Source of the DNA: Escherichia coli | Lineage (GTDB): Bacteria; Pseudomonadota; Gammaproteobacteria; Enterobacterales; Enterobacteriaceae | NCBI RefSeq assembly: GCF_011045215.1 | Contig: NZ_CP049201.1 | DNA length: 64,000 bases | Direction: 5' to 3' (one strand) | Shown: positions 33,930 through 50,088 of the stretch, in pieces | How positions within the stretch are numbered: position 1 is the first letter of the stretch | Layout of the letters: the number at the start of each line of letters is the position of its first letter | The notes under the pieces: generated by a model | The model's database searches: none | What the model was told of the DNA's origin: nothing | Seen by the model: only the letters and a program-made list of their open reading frames with translations | Made by a program: the position numbers and the translations under genes

Positions 33930-34032
33930 TTGGCATTCGAATCGATCATGATTTGGCATCCATCTCCGATCACAGTTTGGCATCACAATCGATCACGATT
34001 TGGCACGCTTCCGATCATTGATTGGCATCCTG
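33930..34032 (+). repeat. Tandem array of ~23-bp GATC-containing repeats (consensus ...TTTGGCAT...CGATC); a further unit lies at 32405-32439 on the other side of the IS4 element
   Basis: Successive units ...tttggcatccatctccgatc / acagtttggcatcacaatcgatc / acgatttggcacgcttccgatc...; array is split by the IS4 insertion. Confidence 0.6.
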
Positions 34033-34345
34033 CCAGTCACTCCGGGAATTAACTCTTTTCGCCACAGTCTTCATTGCCGTGTTTAAACCAATGGAGACGG
34101 CAATGTCCAGAAAGAGAAAATCCAGGAGCACTATGGAAACCTGTTTTAAGATCCTTCAGCTCAAGTTCGACCAGAAGCTGACTAACCGTTGTATCGGGCT
34201 GACATTACACATCAGCGCCTCAACCGTTTTTGAGGTTCTTGCACGCTTCAAAGCCTCTTCTCTGTCATGGCCATTACCTGCTGATATATCCCATGACACG
34301 CTGGAGAAACTCATTTTTCCGCCCAAAGACACCTTTGCATCGTAA
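34022..34345 (+). pseudogene. N-terminal fragment of an HTH transposase (possibly IS21-family IstA-like)
   Basis: ...MSRKRKSRSTMETCFKILQLKFDQKLTNRCIGLTLHISASTVFEVL... HTH-like; truncated where the ~170-bp repeat copy 2 begins. Confidence 0.35.
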
Positions 34346-41903: not shown

Positions 41904-42563
41904 TTGTCAGATGAATTTTTATACGGAATTCTTTTCAGTATGCATACACGAATTGATTATCTGGTGAATAAATACAGTTTTACAGAACTGAATGAATCTC
42001 CACGTCTTCGTCGGCAGTGGCAGGATGTTCTGGAGGAGTGCCGGCAGACAGAGGCCGGGCCAGAAGAACGGCTGCGTATTGCACTGCTGAATGTGGATTA
42101 CGTCACCAGTTTTGAGCTGCCTTTTCGCTTGCTGCTTACCCGGACACCACAACTGATTGCCGCGCTGCGTGAAGAATGGGGCATCAGCCAGAAAAATGTG
42201 GTGTTCAACGATAAACGGTTTGGCTGCGTGTACAGCCTGAAGGCCAGCCTTTCGGGTGTGCCGGATACATTCCGGTATCATCTGTCTCACCGTATTCGTC
42301 GCGTGGTTGGGAATGAAAACACATCATTGCCATATCAGCAGGTTGCCCGGGAAGTGAAAGCGTCCCGTGAACGGCTGAAGTATGCGCTGGAAGCAGGTTT
42401 ACTGGTGACCGCACTGGACGGGCTGTTCTGGTCTGGCAGTCAGCGTATTGCGGCTGATGTCCTGAGATTAAGACAGAGCGGAATGCCGGTAGTGACAACG
42501 AATGTGGAGGTGCACGATAACCTGACGGGAACAACCCGCAAAGTGCCGGCATACCATCTCTGA
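41904..42563 (+). CDS. Hypothetical protein (cryptic-prophage-type; family not confirmed)
   Basis: 219-aa ORF with plausible coding composition; no motif recognised. Confidence 0.35.
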   Translation: MSDEFLYGILFSMHTRIDYLVNKYSFTELNESPRLRRQWQDVLEECRQTEAGPEERLRIALLNVDYVTSFELPFRLLLTRTPQLIAALREEWGISQKNVVFNDKRFGCVYSLKASLSGVPDTFRYHLSHRIRRVVGNENTSLPYQQVAREVKASRERLKYALEAGLLVTALDGLFWSGSQRIAADVLRLRQSGMPVVTTNVEVHDNLTGTTRKVPAYHL

Positions 42564-42935
42564 TACGACCATCAGGGGGGGCTCTGGCAGCAGTATGACA
42601 TTCTTTATACTTTTACCCGTGCCTGAAAACATGTGCTAAGGAAACGGGAATGGCAAGGTCCGATTACGATATTATCAATCTGTCTCTGGAACATGAACTG
42701 AATGAGTGGCTGGCAGAGAGAGGTTATGCCGGACTGGCGGATAACCGGAACCGCCTGGCAGAGGTGGTGACCCGCAAATTGCAGGACAGCTTTTATATAA
42801 ACGTTTCCTGGGATGCGCTGAACACAGCATACAGTGAACACCCTGAGTGGTTTTCAGGGCTTGTCTCCGGGGATGAGAATTAATAAGTGGATTATGCTGC
42901 CATCAGGCAGTGTGATTGCCGGCAGGGATTTCGTT

Positions 42936-43127
42936 TTATTCTGTTTCTTCCCGGGGTTCGGGTTTGAATTTTCCCAGGAAGTTGTACATCGGTCGCATGC
43001 AGGGATGCGGATAGCCGTCCCGCATAAACACCACCCGGGTTTCCTCAACACTGGTCACGGTGACAAGCGCACCATGATCGTCTCTGTATCGCTGATTGAT
43101 TTTCGGTAATGGAATATCTTCTGACAT
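42936..43127 (-). CDS. Small hypothetical protein
   Basis: 63-aa ORF immediately upstream of the T6SS promoter region; no family recognised. Confidence 0.25.
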   Translation of the reverse strand: MSEDIPLPKINQRYRDDHGALVTVTSVEETRVVFMRDGYPHPCMRPMYNFLGKFKPEPREETE

Positions 43128-43474
43128 AGATTTCAGAACGGTAACAGTTAACTAAAATTTCACGTGGTATCGCTGAATCAGGAGACGGCGTTTCCTGATT
43201 CACACTGTCAATTTACTGTTTTACGAAACATTTTCTCCTCCCTTCTTCCTGTGTGTTTTATTGCGCACTTCCTTTATGCCATTTCCATTTCCCGAAACTC
43301 GCTTAAGTGTTGCTAAAACATTGCTCATCGCAATTTTCAATGACCGAAATCAAATATCACTATTTTTTATGCTAACCAACTGTATTAAAAGCATTCGGCG
43401 GAATAATTTTCTGCGGTTTTCTATTAATCATGGTTATAAGTTTTGCATTATGCTGGTTTTACGACACGGGACAG

Positions 43475-43560
43475 AATAAAGATCTGTATATTTGCTATAT
43501 ATCGATCGATACATCTGTCATATTGAGATTTTACAGATCTTTACTCTATAATGAGCAAAA
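43475..43560 (+). promoter_or_regulatory. T6SS promoter region with three clustered GATC sites in an AT-rich segment and a TATAAT -10
   Basis: GATC at 43481, 43504, 43536; TATAAT at 43547-43552; ~80 bp upstream of tssB. Confidence 0.55.
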
Positions 43561-43632
43561 TTAAATCAGTGCACAAGGGGAGGCATCTGCGGTGATGGAC
43601 CCCCTGAGATGCAGGCTTCACAGGAGAGAGTC

Positions 43633-44130
43633 ATGAGCAGTTCGTTTCAGAATGAAATCCCGAAAGCAAGGGTAAATCTGAAATTAGACCTACATACAGG
43701 TGGTGGGCAGAAGAAAGTGGAGCTTCCGCTCAAACTGCTGGTTGCCGGTGATTTCAGTAACGGACAGGAAGAGCGTCCACTGTCAGAGCGTGTAAAAACG
43801 GATATTAATAAAAACAATTTTAATGATGTTCTGGCAGATATCTCCCCGTCTGTGCGTCTGAATGTGGAGAACACGCTTGCCGGTGATGGCTCTGAAGAGA
43901 GCATCAGCCTGACGTTCCGCAATATGAACGATTTCACGCCAGAGCAGGTCGCCCGACAGATTCCCCGTCTTAAAGCCATGCTGGCCATGCGCAGCCTTCT
44001 GCGGGACCTGAAAGCCAATCTGCTGGATAACGTGACTTTCCGTAAAGAGCTGGAAAAAATTCTGCGTGACCCGGCACTGAGCCAGACGCTGCGTGATGAA
44101 TTGCGTGCACTGGTGCCGGAAAAGGCGTGA
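43633..44130 (+). CDS. tssB: T6SS sheath small subunit TssB (VipA)
   Basis: ORF 43609..44130; start at Met 43633 after AGGAGA; size and ...KARVNLKLDL...LPLKLLVAGDFS... typical of TssB. Confidence 0.9.
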   Translation: MSSSFQNEIPKARVNLKLDLHTGGGQKKVELPLKLLVAGDFSNGQEERPLSERVKTDINKNNFNDVLADISPSVRLNVENTLAGDGSEESISLTFRNMNDFTPEQVARQIPRLKAMLAMRSLLRDLKANLLDNVTFRKELEKILRDPALSQTLRDELRALVPEKA

Positions 44131-44151: not shown

Positions 44152-45696
44152 ATGCTGATGTCTGTACAGAAAGAAAAGAACGTCGCAGAGAGTGTGGTAT
44201 CTGAAACGCATACCGGCGACAGCGTATATGCTTCCCTGTTTGAAAAAATTAACCTGAATCCGGTATCTGCCCTGAGTGCACTGGATATTTGGCAGGATCC
44301 ACAGGCCATGTCAGAAGCGTCTGCAGATGAACGCCTGACGGCAGGGATGCAGGTGTTTATGGAGTGTCTGGCAAAAGCCGGTACGCAGGTGGAAAAACTC
44401 GATAAAGCGCTGATTGACCATCATATTGCAGAGCTTGATTATCAGATCAGCCGTCAGCTGGATGCTGTGCTTCATCATCCGGAATTTCAGAAAGTTGAAT
44501 CCCTGTGGCGGGGCGTGAAGTCTCTGGTGGATAAAACGGACTTCCGCCGTAATGTGAAAATTGAGCTGCTGGATCTGTCCAAAGACGATCTGCGTCAGGA
44601 TTTTGAGGATGCGCCGGAAATTATTCAGAGCGGTCTTTATCTGCAGACCTATGTGGCTGAGTATGACACGCCGGGTGGTGAGCCCATTGCCGCCCTGGTT
44701 TCGGCCTGGGAGTTTGATGCATCTGCACAGGACGTGGCACTGCTGAAAAATATTTCCCGGGTGGCGGCATCCGCGCATATGCCGTTTATTGGTTCAGTTG
44801 GCCCGGCGTTCTTCCAGAAAGAAACCATGGAAGAAGTGGCTGCCATCAAGGATATTGGCAACCACTTTGAACGTGCCGAGTACATCAAGTGGAATACTTT
44901 CCGTGAGACGGACGATGCCCGCTATATTGGTCTGGTGATGCCCCGTGTACTGGGACGCCTGCCGTATGGCCCGGATACCGTACCTGTCCGCAGCTTTAAC
45001 TATGTTGAAGAGGTGAAAGGACCGGATCACCATAAATATCTCTGGACGAACGCGTCTTTTGCCTTTGCCGCCAACATGGTGCGTAGTTTTGTCACCAATG
45101 GCTGGTGTGTTCAGATCCGCGGGCCTCAGGCCGGTGGTGCGGTGCAGGATTTGCCAATCCATCTGTATGATCTGGGAACCGGTAATCAGGTCAAAATACC
45201 GTCAGAGGTGATGATCCCGGAAACGCGGGAGTTTGAATTCGCTAATCTGGGCTTTATTTCTCTCTCTTACTACAAGAACCGGGATTATGCCTGCTTCTTC
45301 TCCGCCAACTCCGCCCAGAAACCGGCGCTGTACGATACGCCGGATGCGACAGCGAACAGCCGTATTAATGCCCGTCTTCCCTATATCTTCCTGCTGTCCC
45401 GCATTGCGCATTACCTGAAGATCATTCAGCGGGAAAATATCGGTACCACCAAAGATCGCCGTCTGCTTGAGCTGGAGCTGAATAACTGGATCCGGGGACT
45501 GGTGACGGAGATGACCGATCCGGGCGATGAGCTGCAGGCCTCGCATCCGCTGCGTGACGGAAAAGTGGTGGTGGAAGATATCGAAGACAATCCGGGATTC
45601 TTCCGCGTGAAACTCTACGCCGTACCGCATTTCCAGGTGGAAGGTATGGATGTCAGCCTGTCACTGGTTTCGCAGATGCCGAAGGCAAAAGCGTAA
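44152..45696 (+). CDS. tssC: T6SS sheath large subunit TssC (VipB)
   Basis: 514 aa, follows tssB. Confidence 0.95.
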   Translation: MLMSVQKEKNVAESVVSETHTGDSVYASLFEKINLNPVSALSALDIWQDPQAMSEASADERLTAGMQVFMECLAKAGTQVEKLDKALIDHHIAELDYQISRQLDAVLHHPEFQKVESLWRGVKSLVDKTDFRRNVKIELLDLSKDDLRQDFEDAPEIIQSGLYLQTYVAEYDTPGGEPIAALVSAWEFDASAQDVALLKNISRVAASAHMPFIGSVGPAFFQKETMEEVAAIKDIGNHFERAEYIKWNTFRETDDARYIGLVMPRVLGRLPYGPDTVPVRSFNYVEEVKGPDHHKYLWTNASFAFAANMVRSFVTNGWCVQIRGPQAGGAVQDLPIHLYDLGTGNQVKIPSEVMIPETREFEFANLGFISLSYYKNRDYACFFSANSAQKPALYDTPDATANSRINARLPYIFLLSRIAHYLKIIQRENIGTTKDRRLLELELNNWIRGLVTEMTDPGDELQASHPLRDGKVVVEDIEDNPGFFRVKLYAVPHFQVEGMDVSLSLVSQMPKAKA

Positions 45697-45711: not shown

Positions 45712-47049
45712 ATGAAGATTTATCGTCCACTGTGGGAAGACGGGGCTTTTCTGATGCCCCAGCAGTTTCAGCAGCAGGCTGCCTGGGATGTTCATCTGGC
45801 AGACAGCGTTGCCAGAATGGGGCTGGCGCATCCATGGGGCGTGGTGGCTGCAGAGTTTGATGACTCTCTGTTACCTCTTTCACGGTTGAATGCCACCCGT
45901 CTGATTGTTCGTTTCCCGGACGGAACGCTTATTGATACGGAACGCGCGGATAATCTGCCTCCGGTCTGTGATTTATCGACGGTTTCTGATCGTTCCCTGG
46001 TGGATATTGTGCTGGCACTACCGTTACTGAATGCTAACGGTGGCAACCTTGATAATGGCAGTGAGAGCGAGCGTCCGCGTCGCTGGAAATCAGAAAGGGT
46101 GAATGTGCAGGAGCTGGCCGGGCATGAGCAAAGCGAAGTGGCGGTATTGCGGCATAACCTGACTCTGCGCATGGCTCATCAGGAAAATGCTGCCTGGCTG
46201 ACCTGTCCCGTTACCCGTCTTGTTCGTGATGCACAGGGACAGTGGTGCAGGGACCCGCGTTTTATTCCCCCTCTGCTGACGCTGTCTGCCAGTCCTTCGC
46301 TGATGACTGAACTTGCGGAGTTGCTTCATCACCTGCAGGCGCGTCGCCAGCGACTGATGTCCATGCGTCGGGAGAACAATGCCCGTCTTGCGGATTTTGC
46401 AGTGGCGGACGTGTCGTTGTTCTGGTTGCTGAATGCCCTGAACAGTGCGGAGCCTGTTCTGAAAGAGTTGCTTGACATGCCTTACCGCCACCCGGAACTG
46501 TTGTACAGGGAGCTTGCCCGACTGGCAGGCTCCCTGCTCACATTCTCGCTTGAGCATAATGTGGATGCGGTTCCGGCATACCATCATGAAACACCTGAAA
46601 ATGTTTTCCCACCTTTGCTTTCTTTGCTGAACCAGCTGCTGGAGGCAAGCCTGCCTTCCCGTGTGGTCTTCATTGAACTGAAACAAAATGGTGTGATGTG
46701 GGAGGGGGCATTACATGATGCGCGTCTGCGCGAAGGGGCTGATTTCTGGCTTTCAGTGCGCTCTTCCATGCCCGGGCATGAACTGCAGACGAAGTTTCCG
46801 CAGCTATGCAAAGCCGGAAGCCCCGATGATGTGTCTGAGGTGGTGAATGTGGCGCTGAGCGGGGTCATTATCCGTCCGGTTACGCATGTACCGGCGGCCA
46901 TTCCACTCCGGCTGGAAAACCAGTATTTCGCGCTGGATTTAAGTACGGATGCGGCCCGGGCGATGCTGGACGCGGGGCGTTGTACTTTCTACACCCCGGC
47001 ATCGCTGGGGGATGTGAAACTGGAACTTTTTGCGGTGCTGCGGACATGA
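45712..47049 (+). CDS. tssK: T6SS baseplate protein TssK
   Basis: 445 aa; N-terminal MKIYRPLWEDGAFLMPQQFQQQ... characteristic of TssK. Confidence 0.85.
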   Translation: MKIYRPLWEDGAFLMPQQFQQQAAWDVHLADSVARMGLAHPWGVVAAEFDDSLLPLSRLNATRLIVRFPDGTLIDTERADNLPPVCDLSTVSDRSLVDIVLALPLLNANGGNLDNGSESERPRRWKSERVNVQELAGHEQSEVAVLRHNLTLRMAHQENAAWLTCPVTRLVRDAQGQWCRDPRFIPPLLTLSASPSLMTELAELLHHLQARRQRLMSMRRENNARLADFAVADVSLFWLLNALNSAEPVLKELLDMPYRHPELLYRELARLAGSLLTFSLEHNVDAVPAYHHETPENVFPPLLSLLNQLLEASLPSRVVFIELKQNGVMWEGALHDARLREGADFWLSVRSSMPGHELQTKFPQLCKAGSPDDVSEVVNVALSGVIIRPVTHVPAAIPLRLENQYFALDLSTDAARAMLDAGRCTFYTPASLGDVKLELFAVLRT

Positions 47050-47699
47050 ATAAACCTGTTATCTCCCGGGCTGAACAGATTTTTTATCCCGGCTGGCTGA
47101 TGGTCAGCCAGCTGCGCAGCGGGCAACCGGTTGAGGATGGTAAGGCCCTGTATCGCCGTGCCTGTCAGCTGGTGAAACAGGCGCGTGAAGAGCTGGCCGA
47201 AGCAGGATTCAGTCAGGAAAACAGTGACACCATGTTGTATGCCTTCTGTGCCCTGCTGGACGAGAGTGTGCTGAACCGCGAAAAAACAGATGATGGCTGG
47301 CACACCTGGCAGCAGGACCCGCTGCAGGCTCATTTTTTTGGTACGCTCAATGCCGGTGAAGAGCTCTGGGAGCGTATTCGTGAGCAACTGAAATTACCAG
47401 CGCCGGATGTGGCGGTACTGACATGCCTCTGCCGTACGCTTCAGCTCGGTTTTACCGGTCAGTACCGGTCGCAGGATGATGAGCGTCGCGAAGATGTAAT
47501 ACGCGCACTGACAGCGCGTGTTCCTGCATTTACTTTCGCACAGGATGCGCCGGTGGTGGTGCGTGCACCGGGTTACCGTGCTGGCAGAACGATGTACTGG
47601 TTGTCATGGGTGGCGGGTATTGTGACGCTGGCTGGTCTCTGGTGTGTGCTTTCTTCTGTGCTTGCAGACCAGGTGGCACGGCTTACCGGACAGGGATAA
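47046..47699 (+). CDS. tssL: T6SS membrane-complex protein TssL (DotU-like)
   Basis: ORF 46980..47699; start at Met 47046 (ATGA overlap with tssK stop); single C-terminal TM helix (...WLSWVAGIVTLAGLWCVLSSVL). Confidence 0.85.
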   Translation: MNKPVISRAEQIFYPGWLMVSQLRSGQPVEDGKALYRRACQLVKQAREELAEAGFSQENSDTMLYAFCALLDESVLNREKTDDGWHTWQQDPLQAHFFGTLNAGEELWERIREQLKLPAPDVAVLTCLCRTLQLGFTGQYRSQDDERREDVIRALTARVPAFTFAQDAPVVVRAPGYRAGRTMYWLSWVAGIVTLAGLWCVLSSVLADQVARLTGQG

Positions 47700-47701
47700 C
47701 C

Positions 47702-49432
47702 ATGCACGTACGTTCCCGTCTCTGGCTGACAATACTGAGTCTGTTCCTGACACTGTGGCTGATTTCGGGATTCCTGCCGCTGTCTGTAGTAAACCAGATA
47801 ATACTGACCCTGGTTTCAGTTGTGGCGGCGGGGCTTGTGCTGTGGTACCAGTGGCGTTGTCTGTCTTCCCGTCGTGATATCCCGGAGAAGGCCGGCGATG
47901 ACGGTCTGCCGCCTGAGTATTTTCAGGGACATGTGCTGCTTGTTGCCGGAAACTCAGATGCGTGGTTCGAATCCGGTCAGGCATACCGGGAAACAGCATC
48001 GGGATGGTATCTTCGTGTGGATACGCCGGAGCAGATGAGAATACTGGCAGAACGGTTGTCGTATAACCGTCCGGCCCTGTGTGGCCAGGTCGTGGTCATG
48101 CTGGGACTTTTACCGGAGCAGCATACCTCAGATGAAGCTTTTCTGCCGTGGTTGCGGAACTGGCAGCGTGCAGTCATGCAGTGCCGGCAGTGGCTGAATA
48201 CCACGCCACCGGTGCTGGTGACATTGATGGTTTCAGAGCCGTCACCACAAAACACATCCTTAAATAAGCACTCTGCACACTGGTTTACACTGACACCGGA
48301 CCTGCCGGGAATGCATATACGCCTGACAGAAGCCGGAGCCATTCCGGCAGAGGAATGGCTGCTGGCGTGTGATGCAGCGTCCAGGCTCCGGTGCGTCAGT
48401 GAACTGTTATGGCTGAATGCCATGTTGTCCTGGTACAACAGGGTTACTGATGCCCTGACAGATATTTGCCGGCAGGAGCACTTTTATTTCCGGCCGGTTG
48501 CCGTTGGATTCTGTCTGACGTCGGTTGCGGCCCACCCCGGTAATCTCTGGCAACAACAACTGACGTCCCTCACTGCACTGCCACCGTCTGCCGGCGTGTC
48601 ATCACAGGCACTGCCGTTGCCGGATATTCTGCTGTCCGGTATCCCCCGTCATCGTGGACTCAGTCACTGGCACAGACTTTGTCGCCAGACAGGGGCGATT
48701 GTCGGTGTTTTTCTTCTGCTGGCTATACTGGCGTCTTTTATGAATAACCAGCGACTGGTTCGCAGTGTGGGGGAGCACCTGACGGCCTGGCACCGGATGA
48801 GCGGATATTCATCTGAATCGAAAACAACAGCACTGCAACGTCTTCAGGCTGACAACCAGTTACTGAACGACTGGCAGCAACGTGGTGTGCCACAGCGTTA
48901 CGGACTGGGATTGTATCAGGGAATGTGGCTGATATCGCCGGTTGAGCGAGCGATTAGTGAGCGGGTTGCACCACTGCCTCCCCGTCCGGTGATACAGAAA
49001 GTTACTCAGACGCCGAAAACGGTTCGCCTTAACAGCCTGGCGCTGTTTGATGCCGGTAAATGGACGCTGAAGCCGGGCGCCACAAAATGGCTGGTGAATG
49101 CCCTGGTGGATATTAAGGCAAAAGCAGGCTGGTTGATTGTGGTCAGTGGCCACACGGACAATACCGGTGACCCGCAGCGCAACCAGGCTCTGTCCCTGAA
49201 GCGTGCAGAGGCCGTTCGCGACTGGATGCGGGATACCGGCGATATTCCTCAAAGTTGTTTTGCCGTACAGGGATACGGTGAAAGCCGCCCTGTGGCCCCG
49301 AATGACACGGCGGAAGGCCGTGCGCGTAACCGCCGTGTTGAAATCAGTCTGGTACCGCAGGCCGATGCCTGTCGTCTGCCGGACGCTTCCCCTGCGCCGG
49401 AAGAGGGCGCATCAGAAAACATAACGGAGTAA
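47702..49432 (+). CDS. tagL: TagL-like T6SS accessory protein: polytopic inner-membrane protein with C-terminal OmpA-type peptidoglycan-binding domain
   Basis: ORF 47606..49432; start at Met 47702; N-terminal TM helices, third TM near residue 370, C-terminal ...VVSGHTDNTGDPQRNQALSLKRAEAV...RNRRVEISL. Confidence 0.75.
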   Translation: MHVRSRLWLTILSLFLTLWLISGFLPLSVVNQIILTLVSVVAAGLVLWYQWRCLSSRRDIPEKAGDDGLPPEYFQGHVLLVAGNSDAWFESGQAYRETASGWYLRVDTPEQMRILAERLSYNRPALCGQVVVMLGLLPEQHTSDEAFLPWLRNWQRAVMQCRQWLNTTPPVLVTLMVSEPSPQNTSLNKHSAHWFTLTPDLPGMHIRLTEAGAIPAEEWLLACDAASRLRCVSELLWLNAMLSWYNRVTDALTDICRQEHFYFRPVAVGFCLTSVAAHPGNLWQQQLTSLTALPPSAGVSSQALPLPDILLSGIPRHRGLSHWHRLCRQTGAIVGVFLLLAILASFMNNQRLVRSVGEHLTAWHRMSGYSSESKTTALQRLQADNQLLNDWQQRGVPQRYGLGLYQGMWLISPVERAISERVAPLPPRPVIQKVTQTPKTVRLNSLALFDAGKWTLKPGATKWLVNALVDIKAKAGWLIVVSGHTDNTGDPQRNQALSLKRAEAVRDWMRDTGDIPQSCFAVQGYGESRPVAPNDTAEGRARNRRVEISLVPQADACRLPDASPAPEEGASENITE

Positions 49433-49437
49433 TTTTT

Positions 49438-49929
49438 ATGGCAATTCCAGTTTATCTGTGGCTGAAAGATGATGGCGGTGCAGATATCAAAGGGTCCGTG
49501 GATGTTCAGGACCGTGAGGGCAGCATTGAGGTGGTGGCTCAGGAGCACTGCCTCTACATCCCGACGGATAACAACACCGGTAAGCTGACCGGTACCCGTA
49601 TTCACACACCGTTCCTGTTTACCAAGGAAATTGATTCTTCCAGCCCGTACCTTTACAAGGCCGTGACCACCGGGCAGACCCTGAAGTCTGCTGAATTTAA
49701 GTGGTACAAAATCAATGACGCCGGTCAGGAGGTGGAGTACTTCAATACGAAGCTTGAGAACGTGAAGGTGGTGAAGGTTAATCCGGTCATGCACGACATC
49801 AAGAATCCCACCTACGAGAAGCATAACCACCTTGAACAGGTGGAACTGCGCTACGAGAAAATCACCTGGACCTACAAGGACGGCAACATCATTCATTCCG
49901 ACGCATGGAGTGAACGTACCACCGCGTAA
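49438..49929 (+). CDS. hcp: Hcp (TssD) T6SS tube protein
   Basis: 163 aa; MAIPVYLWLKDDGGADIKGS... typical Hcp N-terminus. Confidence 0.95.
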   Translation: MAIPVYLWLKDDGGADIKGSVDVQDREGSIEVVAQEHCLYIPTDNNTGKLTGTRIHTPFLFTKEIDSSSPYLYKAVTTGQTLKSAEFKWYKINDAGQEVEYFNTKLENVKVVKVNPVMHDIKNPTYEKHNHLEQVELRYEKITWTYKDGNIIHSDAWSERTTA

Positions 49930-49937
49930 TTCTCCCG

Positions 49938-49976
49938 GACGGGCAGGGCATCCTGTCCGTCATTTTTATTTTTTCT
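49938..49976 (+). terminator. Rho-independent terminator after hcp
   Basis: GACGGGCAGG-GCAT-CCTGTCCGTC hairpin (10-bp stem, one mismatch) followed by ATTTTTATTTTTT. Confidence 0.6.
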
Positions 49977-50088
49977 TCAGCATCTGTTGGCGGGTGCTGA
50001 AGAAAAAATTCTCAATCCTGAACACAGACCTGATGCGCCTGGGTTACGGCGAAGGGCGGTAGCGTGCCTGACGGTCTCCTGACAGTGA

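What the first reader, a model, noticed from the sequence alone, without database searches (positions are those of the whole stretch)
43475..43560. T6SS promoter with three clustered GATC sites in a Fur-box-like AT-rich segment
Three GATC sites within ~60 bp overlap AT-rich hexamer repeats and a TATAAT box upstream of tssB. This matches the published Fur plus Dam-methylation epigenetic switch of the enteroaggregative E. coli sci-1 T6SS promoter, suggesting the same iron- and methylation-dependent bistable control.
Basis: partly seen in the sequence, partly recalled or inferred. Interest (0 to 1): 0.45.

Follow-up and report, generated by a model that had tools for sequence, protein, structure and literature searches.

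The report
Variant E. coli T6SS promoter, GATC-I lost
This is the main promoter of an E. coli type VI secretion gene cluster, a natural allele of the well-studied EAEC sci1 promoter in which the one Dam site that sits inside the Fur box has been mutated away, so the published iron/methylation switch cannot work here in its published form.

Summary
The raw observation holds. GATC lies at 43481, 43504 and 43536, a TATAAT at 43547-52, and tssB starts at 43633. The region is the orthologue of the EAEC sci1 promoter (Psci1).

The three GATCs are not the published three:
- Published GATC-III (ATCGATCGAT) and GATC-II (AGATCT) are conserved.
- GATC-I, the site inside Fur box 1 at the -10 where Fur and Dam were shown to compete, reads GAGC here (43553-56).
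- The third GATC (43481, "G4") is an upstream site that EAEC lacks but most other alleles carry.

A Fur matrix built from 15 K-12 sites gives EAEC F1 +1.0 and F2 +1.9 bits. The window's equivalents score -5.6 and -21.9. A 12/19 consensus match is at chance level in AT-rich DNA.

GATC-I is intact in 137 complete E. coli genomes and all 22 metagenome loci. It is lost only here and in strain C5.

Verdict: same promoter family, a known mechanism, and a rare natural variant lacking the core Fur/GATC overlap. Dam effects through GATC-III/II/G4 remain plausible; Fur control is probably weakened.

Side finding: the same GATC-bearing promoter cassette precedes non-T6SS cargo in about 1,270 E. coli genomes, including O157:H7.

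The parts
43128..43632 (+). Intergenic region between a DUF4222 gene (- strand) and tssB. It is the Psci1-type promoter region.
   Evidence: ORFs and Pfam/NCBIfam hits; alignment with EAEC 042 L003:22369-22874. It is 66-84% identical to STEC313, while the flanking CDS are 96-99% identical.
43523..43528 (+). Putative -35 hexamer TTGAGA
   Evidence: Only sigma-70-like hit in the region, 11/12 with an 18-bp spacer. Identical in all T6SS-linked alleles. The TSS has not been mapped, and the published -10/-35 are also 'putative'.
43547..43552 (+). Putative -10 hexamer TATAAT
   Evidence: CTATAATGA is identical in all 20 alleles, but it served as the search anchor, so its invariance is partly by construction.
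43481..43484 (.). GATC 'G4' (AGATCT). EAEC lacks it (AGTCCT). It sits at the 5' edge of the fur2-equivalent.
   Evidence: Present in 11 of 17 distinct 100-bp haplotypes and in STEC313. Absent from the EAEC type (GTCC) and from GAGC/GAAC alleles.
43504..43507 (.). GATC-III (G3) inside the 10-bp palindrome ATCGATCGAT (43501-43510), just upstream of the -35
   Evidence: Maps to the published PvuI/BspDI site. Invariant in all alleles. In EAEC, mutating G3 gives a homogeneous OFF population.
43536..43539 (.). GATC-II (G2), AGATCT, in the -35/-10 spacer
   Evidence: Maps to the published BglII/Hpy188I site, 32 bp from G3 as in EAEC. Invariant in all alleles.
43553..43556 (.). GAGC: the destroyed GATC-I (G1). 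EAEC has TGATCA (BclI) here, 17 bp after G2.
   Evidence: The window-type 54-mer is exact in 1 of 5,426 complete genomes (strain C5). The GATC version is exact in 137. All 22 metagenome loci have GATC.
43547..43565 (+). fur1 (F1) equivalent: TATAATGAGCAAAATTAAA. It is 18/19 identical to the EAEC box that binds Fur.
   Evidence: The EAEC box comes from oligo Bfur2 of Table S1. Consensus match is 12/19 against 13/19. Matrix score is -5.6 against +1.0 bits, and stays 3.4-6.6 bits lower under all pseudocount and background settings.
43483..43501 (+). fur2 (F2) equivalent: TCTGTATATTTGCTATATA. It is 14/19 identical to EAEC CCTGATTATTTGCATTATA.
   Evidence: The EAEC box comes from oligo Bfur1. Consensus match is 8/19 against 12/19. 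Matrix score is -21.9 against +1.9 bits.
43423..43441 (.). Best Fur-matrix hit in the intergenic region: ATTAATCATGGTTATAAGT, 6.6 bits, about 115 bp upstream of the -10
   Evidence: It is weak: 20 positions in the window score at least 6.6 bits. The identical sequence occurs in most non-EAEC T6SS-linked alleles, and related variants score 4.8-9.1 bits in L020 and the two other-cargo alleles. The EAEC version scores 0.7 bits.
43473..43500 (.). Left arm of an imperfect inverted repeat, containing G4
   Evidence: the repeat finder I1: 28-nt arms, 79% complementary, 19 nt apart. Score is 22/28, against a shuffle mean of 16.1 and a maximum of 20 in 300 shuffles. Other alleles score 15-19/28 at the same positions.
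43520..43547 (.). Right arm of the inverted repeat, containing the -35, G2 and the first base of the -10
43399..43413 (.). Conserved block CGGAATAATTTTCTG, matching the Lrp consensus 14/15
   Evidence: One of only three 14/15 matches to yAGhAwATTwTdCTr in 64 kb (consensus confirmed). GGAATAATTT is the longest invariant run, apart from the anchor, among 20 alleles.
43076..43079 (.). Distal GATC ('GATC-dis' of the 2011 paper), inside the DUF4222 coding sequence
   Evidence: Primer Promsci1-5 CGCACCATGATCGTCTCTGTATCGC matches 43068-43092 exactly. Position 22 of the 596-bp fragment.
43633..44130 (+). tssB (sciH orthologue), first gene of the T6SS operon
   Evidence: TIGR03358, 167 bits; annotation of C5, 042 and STEC313
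44152..45696 (+). tssC
   Evidence: TIGR03355, 663 bits
42936..43127 (-). Divergent DUF4222 gene, part of the island backbone that travels with the promoter
   Evidence: PF13973, 80.8 bits. The same neighbour is present in EAEC 042, O104:H4, C5, O157:H7 and NCTC9022.

Best explanation
The segment is the main sigma-70 promoter of a sci1-type (T6SS-1) type VI secretion operon of E. coli. It is an allele of the EAEC Psci1 promoter.

What it keeps: the -35/-10 pair, GATC-II in the spacer and GATC-III just upstream of the -35. It also has a fourth upstream GATC (G4) that most non-EAEC alleles carry.

What it has lost: a T->G substitution has destroyed GATC-I, the only Dam site inside a Fur box. The same substitution changes a base of fur1. 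The fur2 box is no longer recognisable.

Shown: orthology, which sites are present or absent, and how rare the GATC-I loss is.

Inferred:
(i) The published 'Fur blocks GATC-I methylation / GATC-I methylation blocks Fur' memory step cannot operate.
(ii) Any Dam dependence must run through GATC-III/II/G4. In EAEC, GATC-III is the site whose loss locks cells OFF.
(iii) Fur repression is weaker than in EAEC, or relies on other sites such as the 6.6-bit site at 43423-41. The ON/OFF ratio and the iron response should therefore differ from EAEC, not be the same.
For: Orthology:
- Base-level alignment with EAEC 042.
- Restriction-site landmarks and spacings from Fig S1 of Brunet 2011.
- Box sequences from Table S1.

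GATC-I is GAGC here and in strain C5 only:
-.
- The window-type 54-mer is exact in 1 complete genome; the GATC version is exact in 137.
- All 22 metagenome loci have GATC.

Conservation of the other sites:
- G2 and G3 are invariant in 20 distinct alleles with 44% invariant positions overall.
- G4 is present in 11 of 17 haplotypes.

Fur matrix (15 K-12 sites at published coordinates; leave-one-out scores 17.5-28.7 bits):
- EAEC F1 scores +1.0 and F2 +1.9 bits. The window scores -5.6 and -21.9.
- The ordering is stable under other pseudocounts and backgrounds.
- The mutated base is T in 24/30 and G in 0/30.

Function of the sites in EAEC.
Against: - The matrix is a poor judge of weak sites. The two EAEC boxes that bind Fur at nM concentrations score only +1 to +2 bits.
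- The engineered EAEC G1 mutant (GGTC) is predicted to be about as weakened as the window's F1. Yet experimentally it was less active, not derepressed. Fur may therefore still bind here.
- F1 is 18/19 identical to the EAEC box.
- Most natural alleles also have a low-scoring F2, so EAEC may be the atypical allele and other Fur sites may matter.
- There are no expression, methylation or binding data for this allele, and the TSS is not mapped.
Confidence: 0.65

Rival explanations
1. One reading: the promoter runs the same Fur plus Dam bistable switch as EAEC sci1. Iron-loaded Fur represses, and GATC methylation locks the ON state.
For: - The promoter is orthologous, with identical -35/-10, G2 and G3.
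- F1 is 18/19 identical.
- In EAEC, heterogeneity depends mostly on F2 and G3. A G1 point mutant stays heterogeneous, so loss of G1 alone need not abolish bistability.
Against: - GATC-I, the only site shown to compete with Fur, is absent.
- F2, whose mutation makes EAEC constitutively ON, differs at 5 of 19 positions and scores -21.9 bits.
- No position in the core promoter scores above 0 bits.
- A 12/19 consensus match is at chance level.
Confidence: 0.15
2. The conserved GATCs belong to binding sites of another methylation-sensitive factor. A pap-like Lrp/Dam arrangement, or an island-encoded regulator, would act on the mirror-image G4/G2 arms and the conserved upstream block, alongside Fur or instead of it.
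For: - G4 and G2 lie in a significant inverted repeat: 22/28, against a shuffle maximum of 20. It is partly conserved in all alleles, including O157.
- AGAATAAAGATCT (43473-85) matches the Lrp consensus AGAATwwwATTCT at 11/13, and GGAATAATTTTCT (43400-12) also at 11/13. There are 12 such matches in 64 kb.
- 43399-413 matches the other Lrp consensus at 14/15, one of 3 such matches in the window, and is the most conserved block.
- The 2011 transposon screen looked only for derepression, so it would have missed an activator.
- The promoter travels with the island backbone, not with the T6SS genes.
Against: - Lrp-like matches are frequent in AT-rich DNA: 1.5 per kb at 11/13.
- The left arm is conserved even in alleles where it carries no GATC.
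- No papI-like gene is adjacent.
- No experiment links Lrp to sci1, and neither paper mentions Lrp.
- Spacing is 55 bp, not the 102 bp of pap.
Confidence: 0.12
3. The GATC cluster is a chance by-product of palindromic AT-rich promoter DNA and has no regulatory role in this allele.
For: Four 3-in-59-bp clusters occur in the window. The uniform model gives P=0.30 for at least one.
Against: - G2 and G3 are invariant across 20 alleles that differ at 56% of positions, and across about 1,270 genomes with other cargo.
- Point mutations of these sites change expression in EAEC.
- The surrounding island is GATC-poor: 101 observed against about 232-247 expected, with none in the 7 kb from tssK to tssH.
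Confidence: 0.05

Closest known systems
EAEC sci1 (T6SS-1) promoter Psci1, the Fur/Dam epigenetic switch (Brunet et al. 2011, PMC3145626; Taillefer et al. 2026, PMC13262931)
   Same: - Same locus: DUF4222 gene, promoter, then tssB-tssC-tssK-tssL-tagL-hcp-tssH.
- Same -35 TTGAGA and -10 TATAAT.
- GATC-II, GATC-III and the distal GATC sit at identical spacing.
- The 5' leader is almost identical (2 differences between the GATC-I position and the tssB ATG).
- F1 is 18/19 identical.
   Different: - GATC-I is GAGC.
- F2 differs at 5 of 19 positions and is not recognisable by matrix.
- There is an extra GATC (G4) at the F2 5' edge.
- The G2-to--10 spacer is TTTACT instead of TCGTCC, which lengthens an inverted repeat.
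- The upstream 300 bp are only about 70-80% identical.
The majority 'four-GATC' sci1-type alleles in other E. coli (e.g. STEC313 and metagenome loci L020-L036)
   Same: G4, G3 and G2 are present. F2 scores low. Most of these alleles share the 6.6-bit site at -123.
   Different: All of them keep GATC-I and an intact F1. Only the window and strain C5 have lost it.
pap-type Lrp/Dam phase-variation switches
   Same: GATC sites lie in inverted orientation inside conserved AT-rich boxes near a promoter. The Lrp consensus matches overlap the GATCs. A textbook example sits in the same window at 11145/11247.
   Different: - Spacing is 55 bp, not 102 bp.
- There is no PapI/PapB pair.
- No evidence for Lrp binding exists.
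- The known regulator of the orthologue is Fur.
agn43 OxyR/Dam switch
   Same: Three clustered GATCs, with competition between a repressor and Dam. The 2011 paper cites it as an analogue.
   Different: The regulator is different and the sites lie downstream of the TSS. No OxyR-site analysis was done here.
Internal sci1 promoter P4532 with Fur-Dam interplay (Brunet 2020, cited; paper not held)
   Same: Same gene cluster family and the same regulator pair, as reported.
   Different: The EAEC segment that carries it (L003:31900-33200) has no BLAST match in the window, because the cluster diverges after tssH. That promoter is not present in homologous form.

Membership tests
EAEC Psci1-type Fur/Dam switch promoter | Orthologous position: intergenic region directly upstream of tssB (sciH) of a sci1-type T6SS cluster | tested here: met
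   Alignment A2 with EAEC 042; gene order
EAEC Psci1-type Fur/Dam switch promoter | Sigma-70 -35/-10 pair with GATC-II in the spacer and GATC-III just upstream of the -35 | tested here: met
   TTGAGA-18-TATAAT. GATC at 43536 and 43504, 32 bp apart as in Fig S1.
EAEC Psci1-type Fur/Dam switch promoter | GATC-I inside the fur1 box, immediately 3' of the -10. This is the site where Fur and Dam compete. | tested here: not met
   43553-56 is GAGC. EAEC and 15 of 17 haplotypes have GATC.
EAEC Psci1-type Fur/Dam switch promoter | fur1 Fur box overlapping the -10 | tested here: inconclusive
   18/19 identical to the box that binds Fur. However, the changed base is the T next to the methylated A. Matrix score is -5.6 against +1.0 bits, and consensus match is 12/19, which is chance level.
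EAEC Psci1-type Fur/Dam switch promoter | fur2 Fur box upstream of GATC-III. Its mutation makes EAEC constitutively ON. | tested here: not met
   TCTGTATATTTGCTATATA scores 8/19 and -21.9 bits, against 12/19 and +1.9 bits in EAEC. This rests on sequence only; binding was not tested.
EAEC Psci1-type Fur/Dam switch promoter | Fur binding, Fur-dependent protection of a GATC from Dam, iron and dam dependence of expression, and ON/OFF subpopulations | not testable with these tools
   Requires EMSA/FURTA, methylation-sensitive digestion or SMRT/nanopore calls, and reporter fusions with flow cytometry.
EAEC Psci1-type Fur/Dam switch promoter | Host encodes Dam and Fur | not tested
   Neither gene was looked for in the window. 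The window is E. coli DNA (96-99.5% identical to E. coli records), and both genes are core E. coli genes. This last point is established knowledge, so the conclusion is an inference.
pap-type Lrp/Dam phase-variation switch | Two GATC in inverted orientation within Lrp sites | tested here: inconclusive
   G4 and G2 are mirror images. The Lrp consensus matches are 11/13, 10/13 and 12/15, levels common in AT-rich DNA.
pap-type Lrp/Dam phase-variation switch | 102-103 bp spacing of the GATC pair, with adjacent papI/papB-type regulators | tested here: not met
   Spacing is 55 bp. The neighbours are a DUF4222 gene and tssB.

The most novel reading that the evidence does not exclude
The GATC-bearing promoter is not a T6SS-specific device. 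It may be a portable epigenetic control cassette of an integrative-island backbone (ECs1377-family gene, a small ORF, a DUF4222 gene).

The stretch from about -420 to about +10 is reused in roughly a quarter of E. coli genomes. It includes the conserved Lrp-like block, the G4/G2 dyad, GATC-III, GATC-II, the -10 and GATC-I/F1. In about 150 genomes it sits in front of the T6SS. In about 1,270 genomes, including O157:H7 EDL933, it sits in front of a POTRA/TpsB-like operon.

Natural alleles differ in which GATCs and Fur boxes they carry: EAEC has G3-G2-G1 plus F2, most alleles have G4-G3-G2-G1, and this window has G4-G3-G2. These differences would set different ON/OFF ratios. That would be the natural variation that the 2026 study predicted selection could act on.
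Probability: 0.3. Interest if true: 0.6.

Novelty: new variant of a known kind. Interest (0 to 1): 0.4.

Why it matters
The EAEC sci1 promoter is the reference example of a Fur/Dam epigenetic switch and of genetically programmed T6SS heterogeneity. All experiments so far use one allele. This window shows three things:
- That allele is not typical, because it lacks G4 and has a uniquely good F2.
- GATC-II and GATC-III are the invariant core.

This provides a ready-made natural experiment. Swapping alleles or reverting one base would test which elements really set iron responsiveness and the ON/OFF ratio.

The reuse of the same cassette in front of other cargo in O157:H7 and many other strains suggests the switch may control more than T6SS.

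Tried and rejected
1. Counting GATCs as evidence on its own. A 3-in-59-bp cluster somewhere in the window is expected with P=0.30, so I relied on conservation instead.
2. Consensus-mismatch counting as evidence for Fur boxes. A 12/19 match occurs 7.5 times per kb in AT-rich DNA.
3. A structured or known RNA in the 73-nt leader. The fold z-score is 0.47 and no Rfam hit comes near its gathering score.
4. Looking for the promoter outside E. coli. An exact 24-mer and a 31-base degenerate pattern each found nothing in 100,044 species-representative genomes. The 54-mer found nothing in PLSDB plasmids.
5. Looking for the published internal Fur/Dam promoter P4532. The EAEC segment has no homologue in the window, and the 2020 paper is not held.
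6. The strongest Fur-matrix hits in the T6SS part of the window (57369, 14.8 bits; 56583, 11.9 bits). Both lie inside the AT-rich lipase-effector ORF, not in intergenic DNA, so I did not pursue them.
7. The ORF 43609-44130 listed by the ORF finder. The annotated start in relatives, and the SD, point to ATG 43633.
8. Methylome papers that mention sci1. They only cite the EAEC work and give no data on this promoter.

Full report
**Observation**

- The sequence at 43475-43560 reads AATAAAGATCTGTATATTTGCTATATATCGATCGATACATCTGTCATATTGAGATTTTACAGATCTTTACTCTATAATGAGCAAAA.
- GATC occurs at 43481, 43504 and 43536, a span of 59 bp.
- TATAAT lies at 43547-52. With TTGAGA at 43523-28 and an 18-bp spacer, it is the only sigma-70-like hit between 43100 and 43700, scoring 11/12.
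- The segment is 73% A+T.
- tssB starts at 43633. TssB, TssC and TssK match their NCBIfam equivalogs.
- The divergent upstream gene encodes a DUF4222 protein.
- No GATC overlaps the TATAAT box, and no direct hexamer-repeat family was detected.
- By number alone the cluster is weak evidence. The window holds four 3-in-59-bp clusters, and a uniform model gives at least one with P=0.30.
- The window as a whole is GATC-poor: 101 sites against about 247 expected from dinucleotide shuffles.

**What it is**

- The intergenic region 43128-43632 aligns end to end with the region upstream of tssB in EAEC 042 (L003:22369-22874). It also aligns with E. coli C5 (97.3% identical).
- Brunet et al. 2011 (PMC3145626) place the sites in their 596-bp fragment as follows (Fig S1):
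  - GATC-III in a PvuI/BspDI site at position 451.
  - GATC-II in a BglII/Hpy188I site at 483.
  - GATC-I in a BclI site at 500.
  - A distal GATC at 22.
- Their Table S1 oligos give the two Fur boxes: TATAATGATCAAAATTAAA overlapping the -10, and CCTGATTATTTGCATTATA upstream.
- On the alignment these map as:
  - GATC-III is ATCGATCGAT at 43501-10, conserved.
  - GATC-II is AGATCT at 43535-40, conserved and 32 bp further on, as in EAEC.
  - The distal GATC is at 43076, and the authors' forward primer matches 43068-92 exactly.
  - GATC-I is expected 17 bp after GATC-II, but reads GAGC (TATAATGAGCA against TATAATGATCA).
- The window's third GATC (43481, AGATCT) is absent from EAEC (AGTCCT). It sits at the 5' edge of the fur2-equivalent.
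- So the count of three is right, but they are G4, G3 and G2, not G3, G2 and G1.

**Why this matters for the mechanism**

- In EAEC, Fur bound at fur1 protects GATC-I from Dam in vitro and in vivo. GATC-I methylation lowers Fur affinity for fur1. GATC-II and GATC-III are methylated regardless of Fur.
- The 2026 follow-up (PMC13262931) reports the following:
  - F2 mutants are homogeneously ON, even with iron.
  - G3 and G1-2-3 mutants are homogeneously OFF.
  - G1 and G2 mutants stay heterogeneous with altered ratios.
  - Different promoter architectures could be selected to tune the ON/OFF equilibrium.
- The window allele lacks G1. It carries a substitution in F1 at the thymine next to the methylated adenine, a base the 2011 authors describe as contacted by Fur. 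Its F2 differs from the EAEC box at 5 of 19 positions.

**Fur matrix scan**

- I took the coordinates of strong Fur sites from Table 4 of Chen et al. 2007 (PMC2189734). Most are footprinted or gel-shifted there; sufA, bfd and mntH carry no experimental flag in that table.
- I fetched the 15 loci from K-12 MG1655. Each holds a 7-1-7-type site within 1 bp of the published coordinate.
- The symmetrised 19-bp matrix gives leave-one-out scores of 17.5-28.7 bits.
- Scores for the promoter elements:

| Element | EAEC | Window |
|---|---|---|
| F1 | +1.0 bits | -5.6 bits |
| F2 | +1.9 bits | -21.9 bits |

- The T->G change hits a position that is T in 24/30 and never G.
- The ordering holds under heavier pseudocounts and an AT-rich background. 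F1 stays 3.4-6.6 bits lower and F2 stays 14-24 bits lower.
- Nothing between 43442 and 43632 scores above 0 bits.
- The only positive site in the promoter stretch scanned (43400-43632) is ATTAATCATGGTTATAAGT at 43423-41, at 6.6 bits. Twenty positions in the window reach that level.
- Matches of 12/19 to the classical consensus occur 7.5 times per kb in AT-rich parts of the window.
- Caveat: the matrix barely recognises the two EAEC boxes that do bind Fur. It also predicts the engineered GGTC mutant to be about as weak as the window's F1, yet that mutant was less active, not derepressed. The scan shows the boxes are degraded relative to EAEC. It does not show that Fur cannot bind.

**Population survey**

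- An exact 24-mer from the conserved leader retrieved 22 metagenome contigs. It retrieved nothing from 100,044 species-representative genomes. A 31-base degenerate pattern across G3, G2 and the -10 also found nothing there.
- Together with four E. coli genomes and two other-cargo loci (see the next section), these give 17 distinct 100-bp core haplotypes:
  - G3 and G2 are invariant.
  - G1 is present in all but the window and C5.
  - G4 is present in 11 of 17. It is absent from the EAEC type and from GAGC/GAAC alleles.
- F2 scores above 0 bits only in the EAEC haplotype.
- Among 5,426 complete E. coli genomes, the 54-mer around the -10 with GAGC is exact only in C5. The GATC version is exact in 137.
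- Across 20 distinct alleles of the 440-bp region, 44% of positions are invariant. The GATC cores of G3 and G2 are among them.
- The intergenic region is far more divergent than its flanks: 66-84% against 96-99% identity to STEC313.

**The promoter is a cassette of the island backbone**

- In distant mode, the 81-bp core is found in 1,314 genomes.
- In O157:H7 and NCTC9022 the same backbone (ECs1377-family gene, small ORF, DUF4222 gene) and the same promoter are present, including G3, G2, TATAAT and G1/F1. They are followed by a POTRA/TpsB-like gene instead of the T6SS.
- Homology ends about 10-15 bp after the -10.
- The O157-type 73-mer is present in 1,274 genomes, and twice in EDL933.

**Further anatomy**

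- G4 and G2 lie in an imperfect inverted repeat (43473-43500 / 43520-43547). It scores 22/28, against a shuffle mean of 16.1 and a maximum of 20 in 300 shuffles.
- Other alleles score 15-19/28 at the same positions.
- The left arm AGAATAAAGATCT matches the E. coli Lrp consensus AGAATwwwATTCT at 11/13.
- The most conserved upstream block, CGGAATAATTTTCTG (43399-413), matches yAGhAwATTwTdCTr at 14/15. That is one of three such matches in 64 kb.
- These are leads, not findings, because such matches are common in AT-rich DNA.

**Most likely working**

- This is a sigma-70 promoter of the T6SS operon, orthologous to Psci1.
- The GATC-I/F1 memory step cannot exist here.
- Dam can still act at G3, G2 and G4.
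- Fur control is probably weaker or displaced.
- Two opposite outcomes are possible, and computation cannot separate them:
  - If Fur still binds F1, or other sites, there is no methylation block at the -10. The result would be lower, OFF-biased expression, as in the engineered G1 mutant.
  - If F1 and F2 are functionally lost, the result would be iron-insensitive, ON-biased expression, as in the F2 mutant.
- I put about 0.65 on the statement that this allele does not run the published switch unchanged. I put 0.15 on full equivalence.

**Novelty**

- The kind of element is already known. This allele is a rare natural variant of it.
- I found no mention in the papers I could read of the allele spectrum or of the reuse of the cassette in front of other cargo.

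Noticed in passing
window 11140-11262 (GATC at 11145 and 11247): A textbook pap-type Lrp/Dam phase-variation region. Two GATC lie 102 bp apart in inverted ACGATCTTTTTAT boxes. They sit just upstream of a PapB/FocB-family ORF (11292-11603) and a fimbrial subunit ORF (11714-12274). No intact papI-like ORF lies between the boxes and the ISEc8 copy at about 8203-10666.
   Followed up: partly
window 33944-34016: Four GATC at about 23-bp spacing inside repeated CGATCAnnnTTTGGCA units. They lie directly upstream of an ORF starting at 34103 (MSRKRKSRS...). This looks like the multiple terminal repeats of an insertion sequence, with Dam sites inside the presumed transposase-binding repeats.
   Followed up: no
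window 45991-53034 (tssK to tssH); also 12000-17800: GATC deserts. There are 0 GATC in 7,044 bp of 56% G+C, against 26 expected from a maximal-order Markov model. The same stretch of EAEC 042 has 1 against 25.5 expected. Region 12000-17800 has 1 against 17 expected. By contrast tssB-tssC carries 12 in 2.4 kb. The cause is unknown.
   Followed up: partly
L039:2159-2620 (O157:H7 NE 1092-2) and L040:2161-2650 (NCTC9022); window 41904-43560: The promoter with G3, G2, TATAAT and G1/F1, together with its ECs1377-family/DUF4222 backbone, occurs in about 1,270-1,310 of 5,426 complete E. coli genomes. There it sits in front of a POTRA/TpsB-like gene instead of a T6SS. Homology stops just after the -10.
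   Followed up: partly
window 43399-43413: CGGAATAATTTTCTG matches the Lrp consensus yAGhAwATTwTdCTr at 14/15, one of three such matches in the window. It contains the longest invariant run (GGAATAATTT) among 20 promoter alleles. The terminator scan also flags it as a small hairpin.
   Followed up: partly
window 43200-43600 versus flanks: The intergenic region is 66-84% identical to STEC313, while the DUF4222 gene and tssB on either side are 96-99% identical. This suggests allele replacement or fast divergence confined to the regulatory region.
   Followed up: no
window 1-12000: This stretch is 99.5% identical to plasmid NZ_CP010123 of E. coli C5. In C5 the T6SS part matches the chromosome. 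In the window both lie on one 64-kb stretch, so the element is a mosaic.
   Followed up: no
window 52733-59000: After tssH the cluster differs from EAEC 042. It carries a hypothetical gene, vgrG, a lipase-family effector and a putative immunity gene, instead of the EC042_4531-4532/vgrG/tle1-tli1 arrangement. The EAEC segment carrying internal promoter P4532 has no match in the window.
   Followed up: partly
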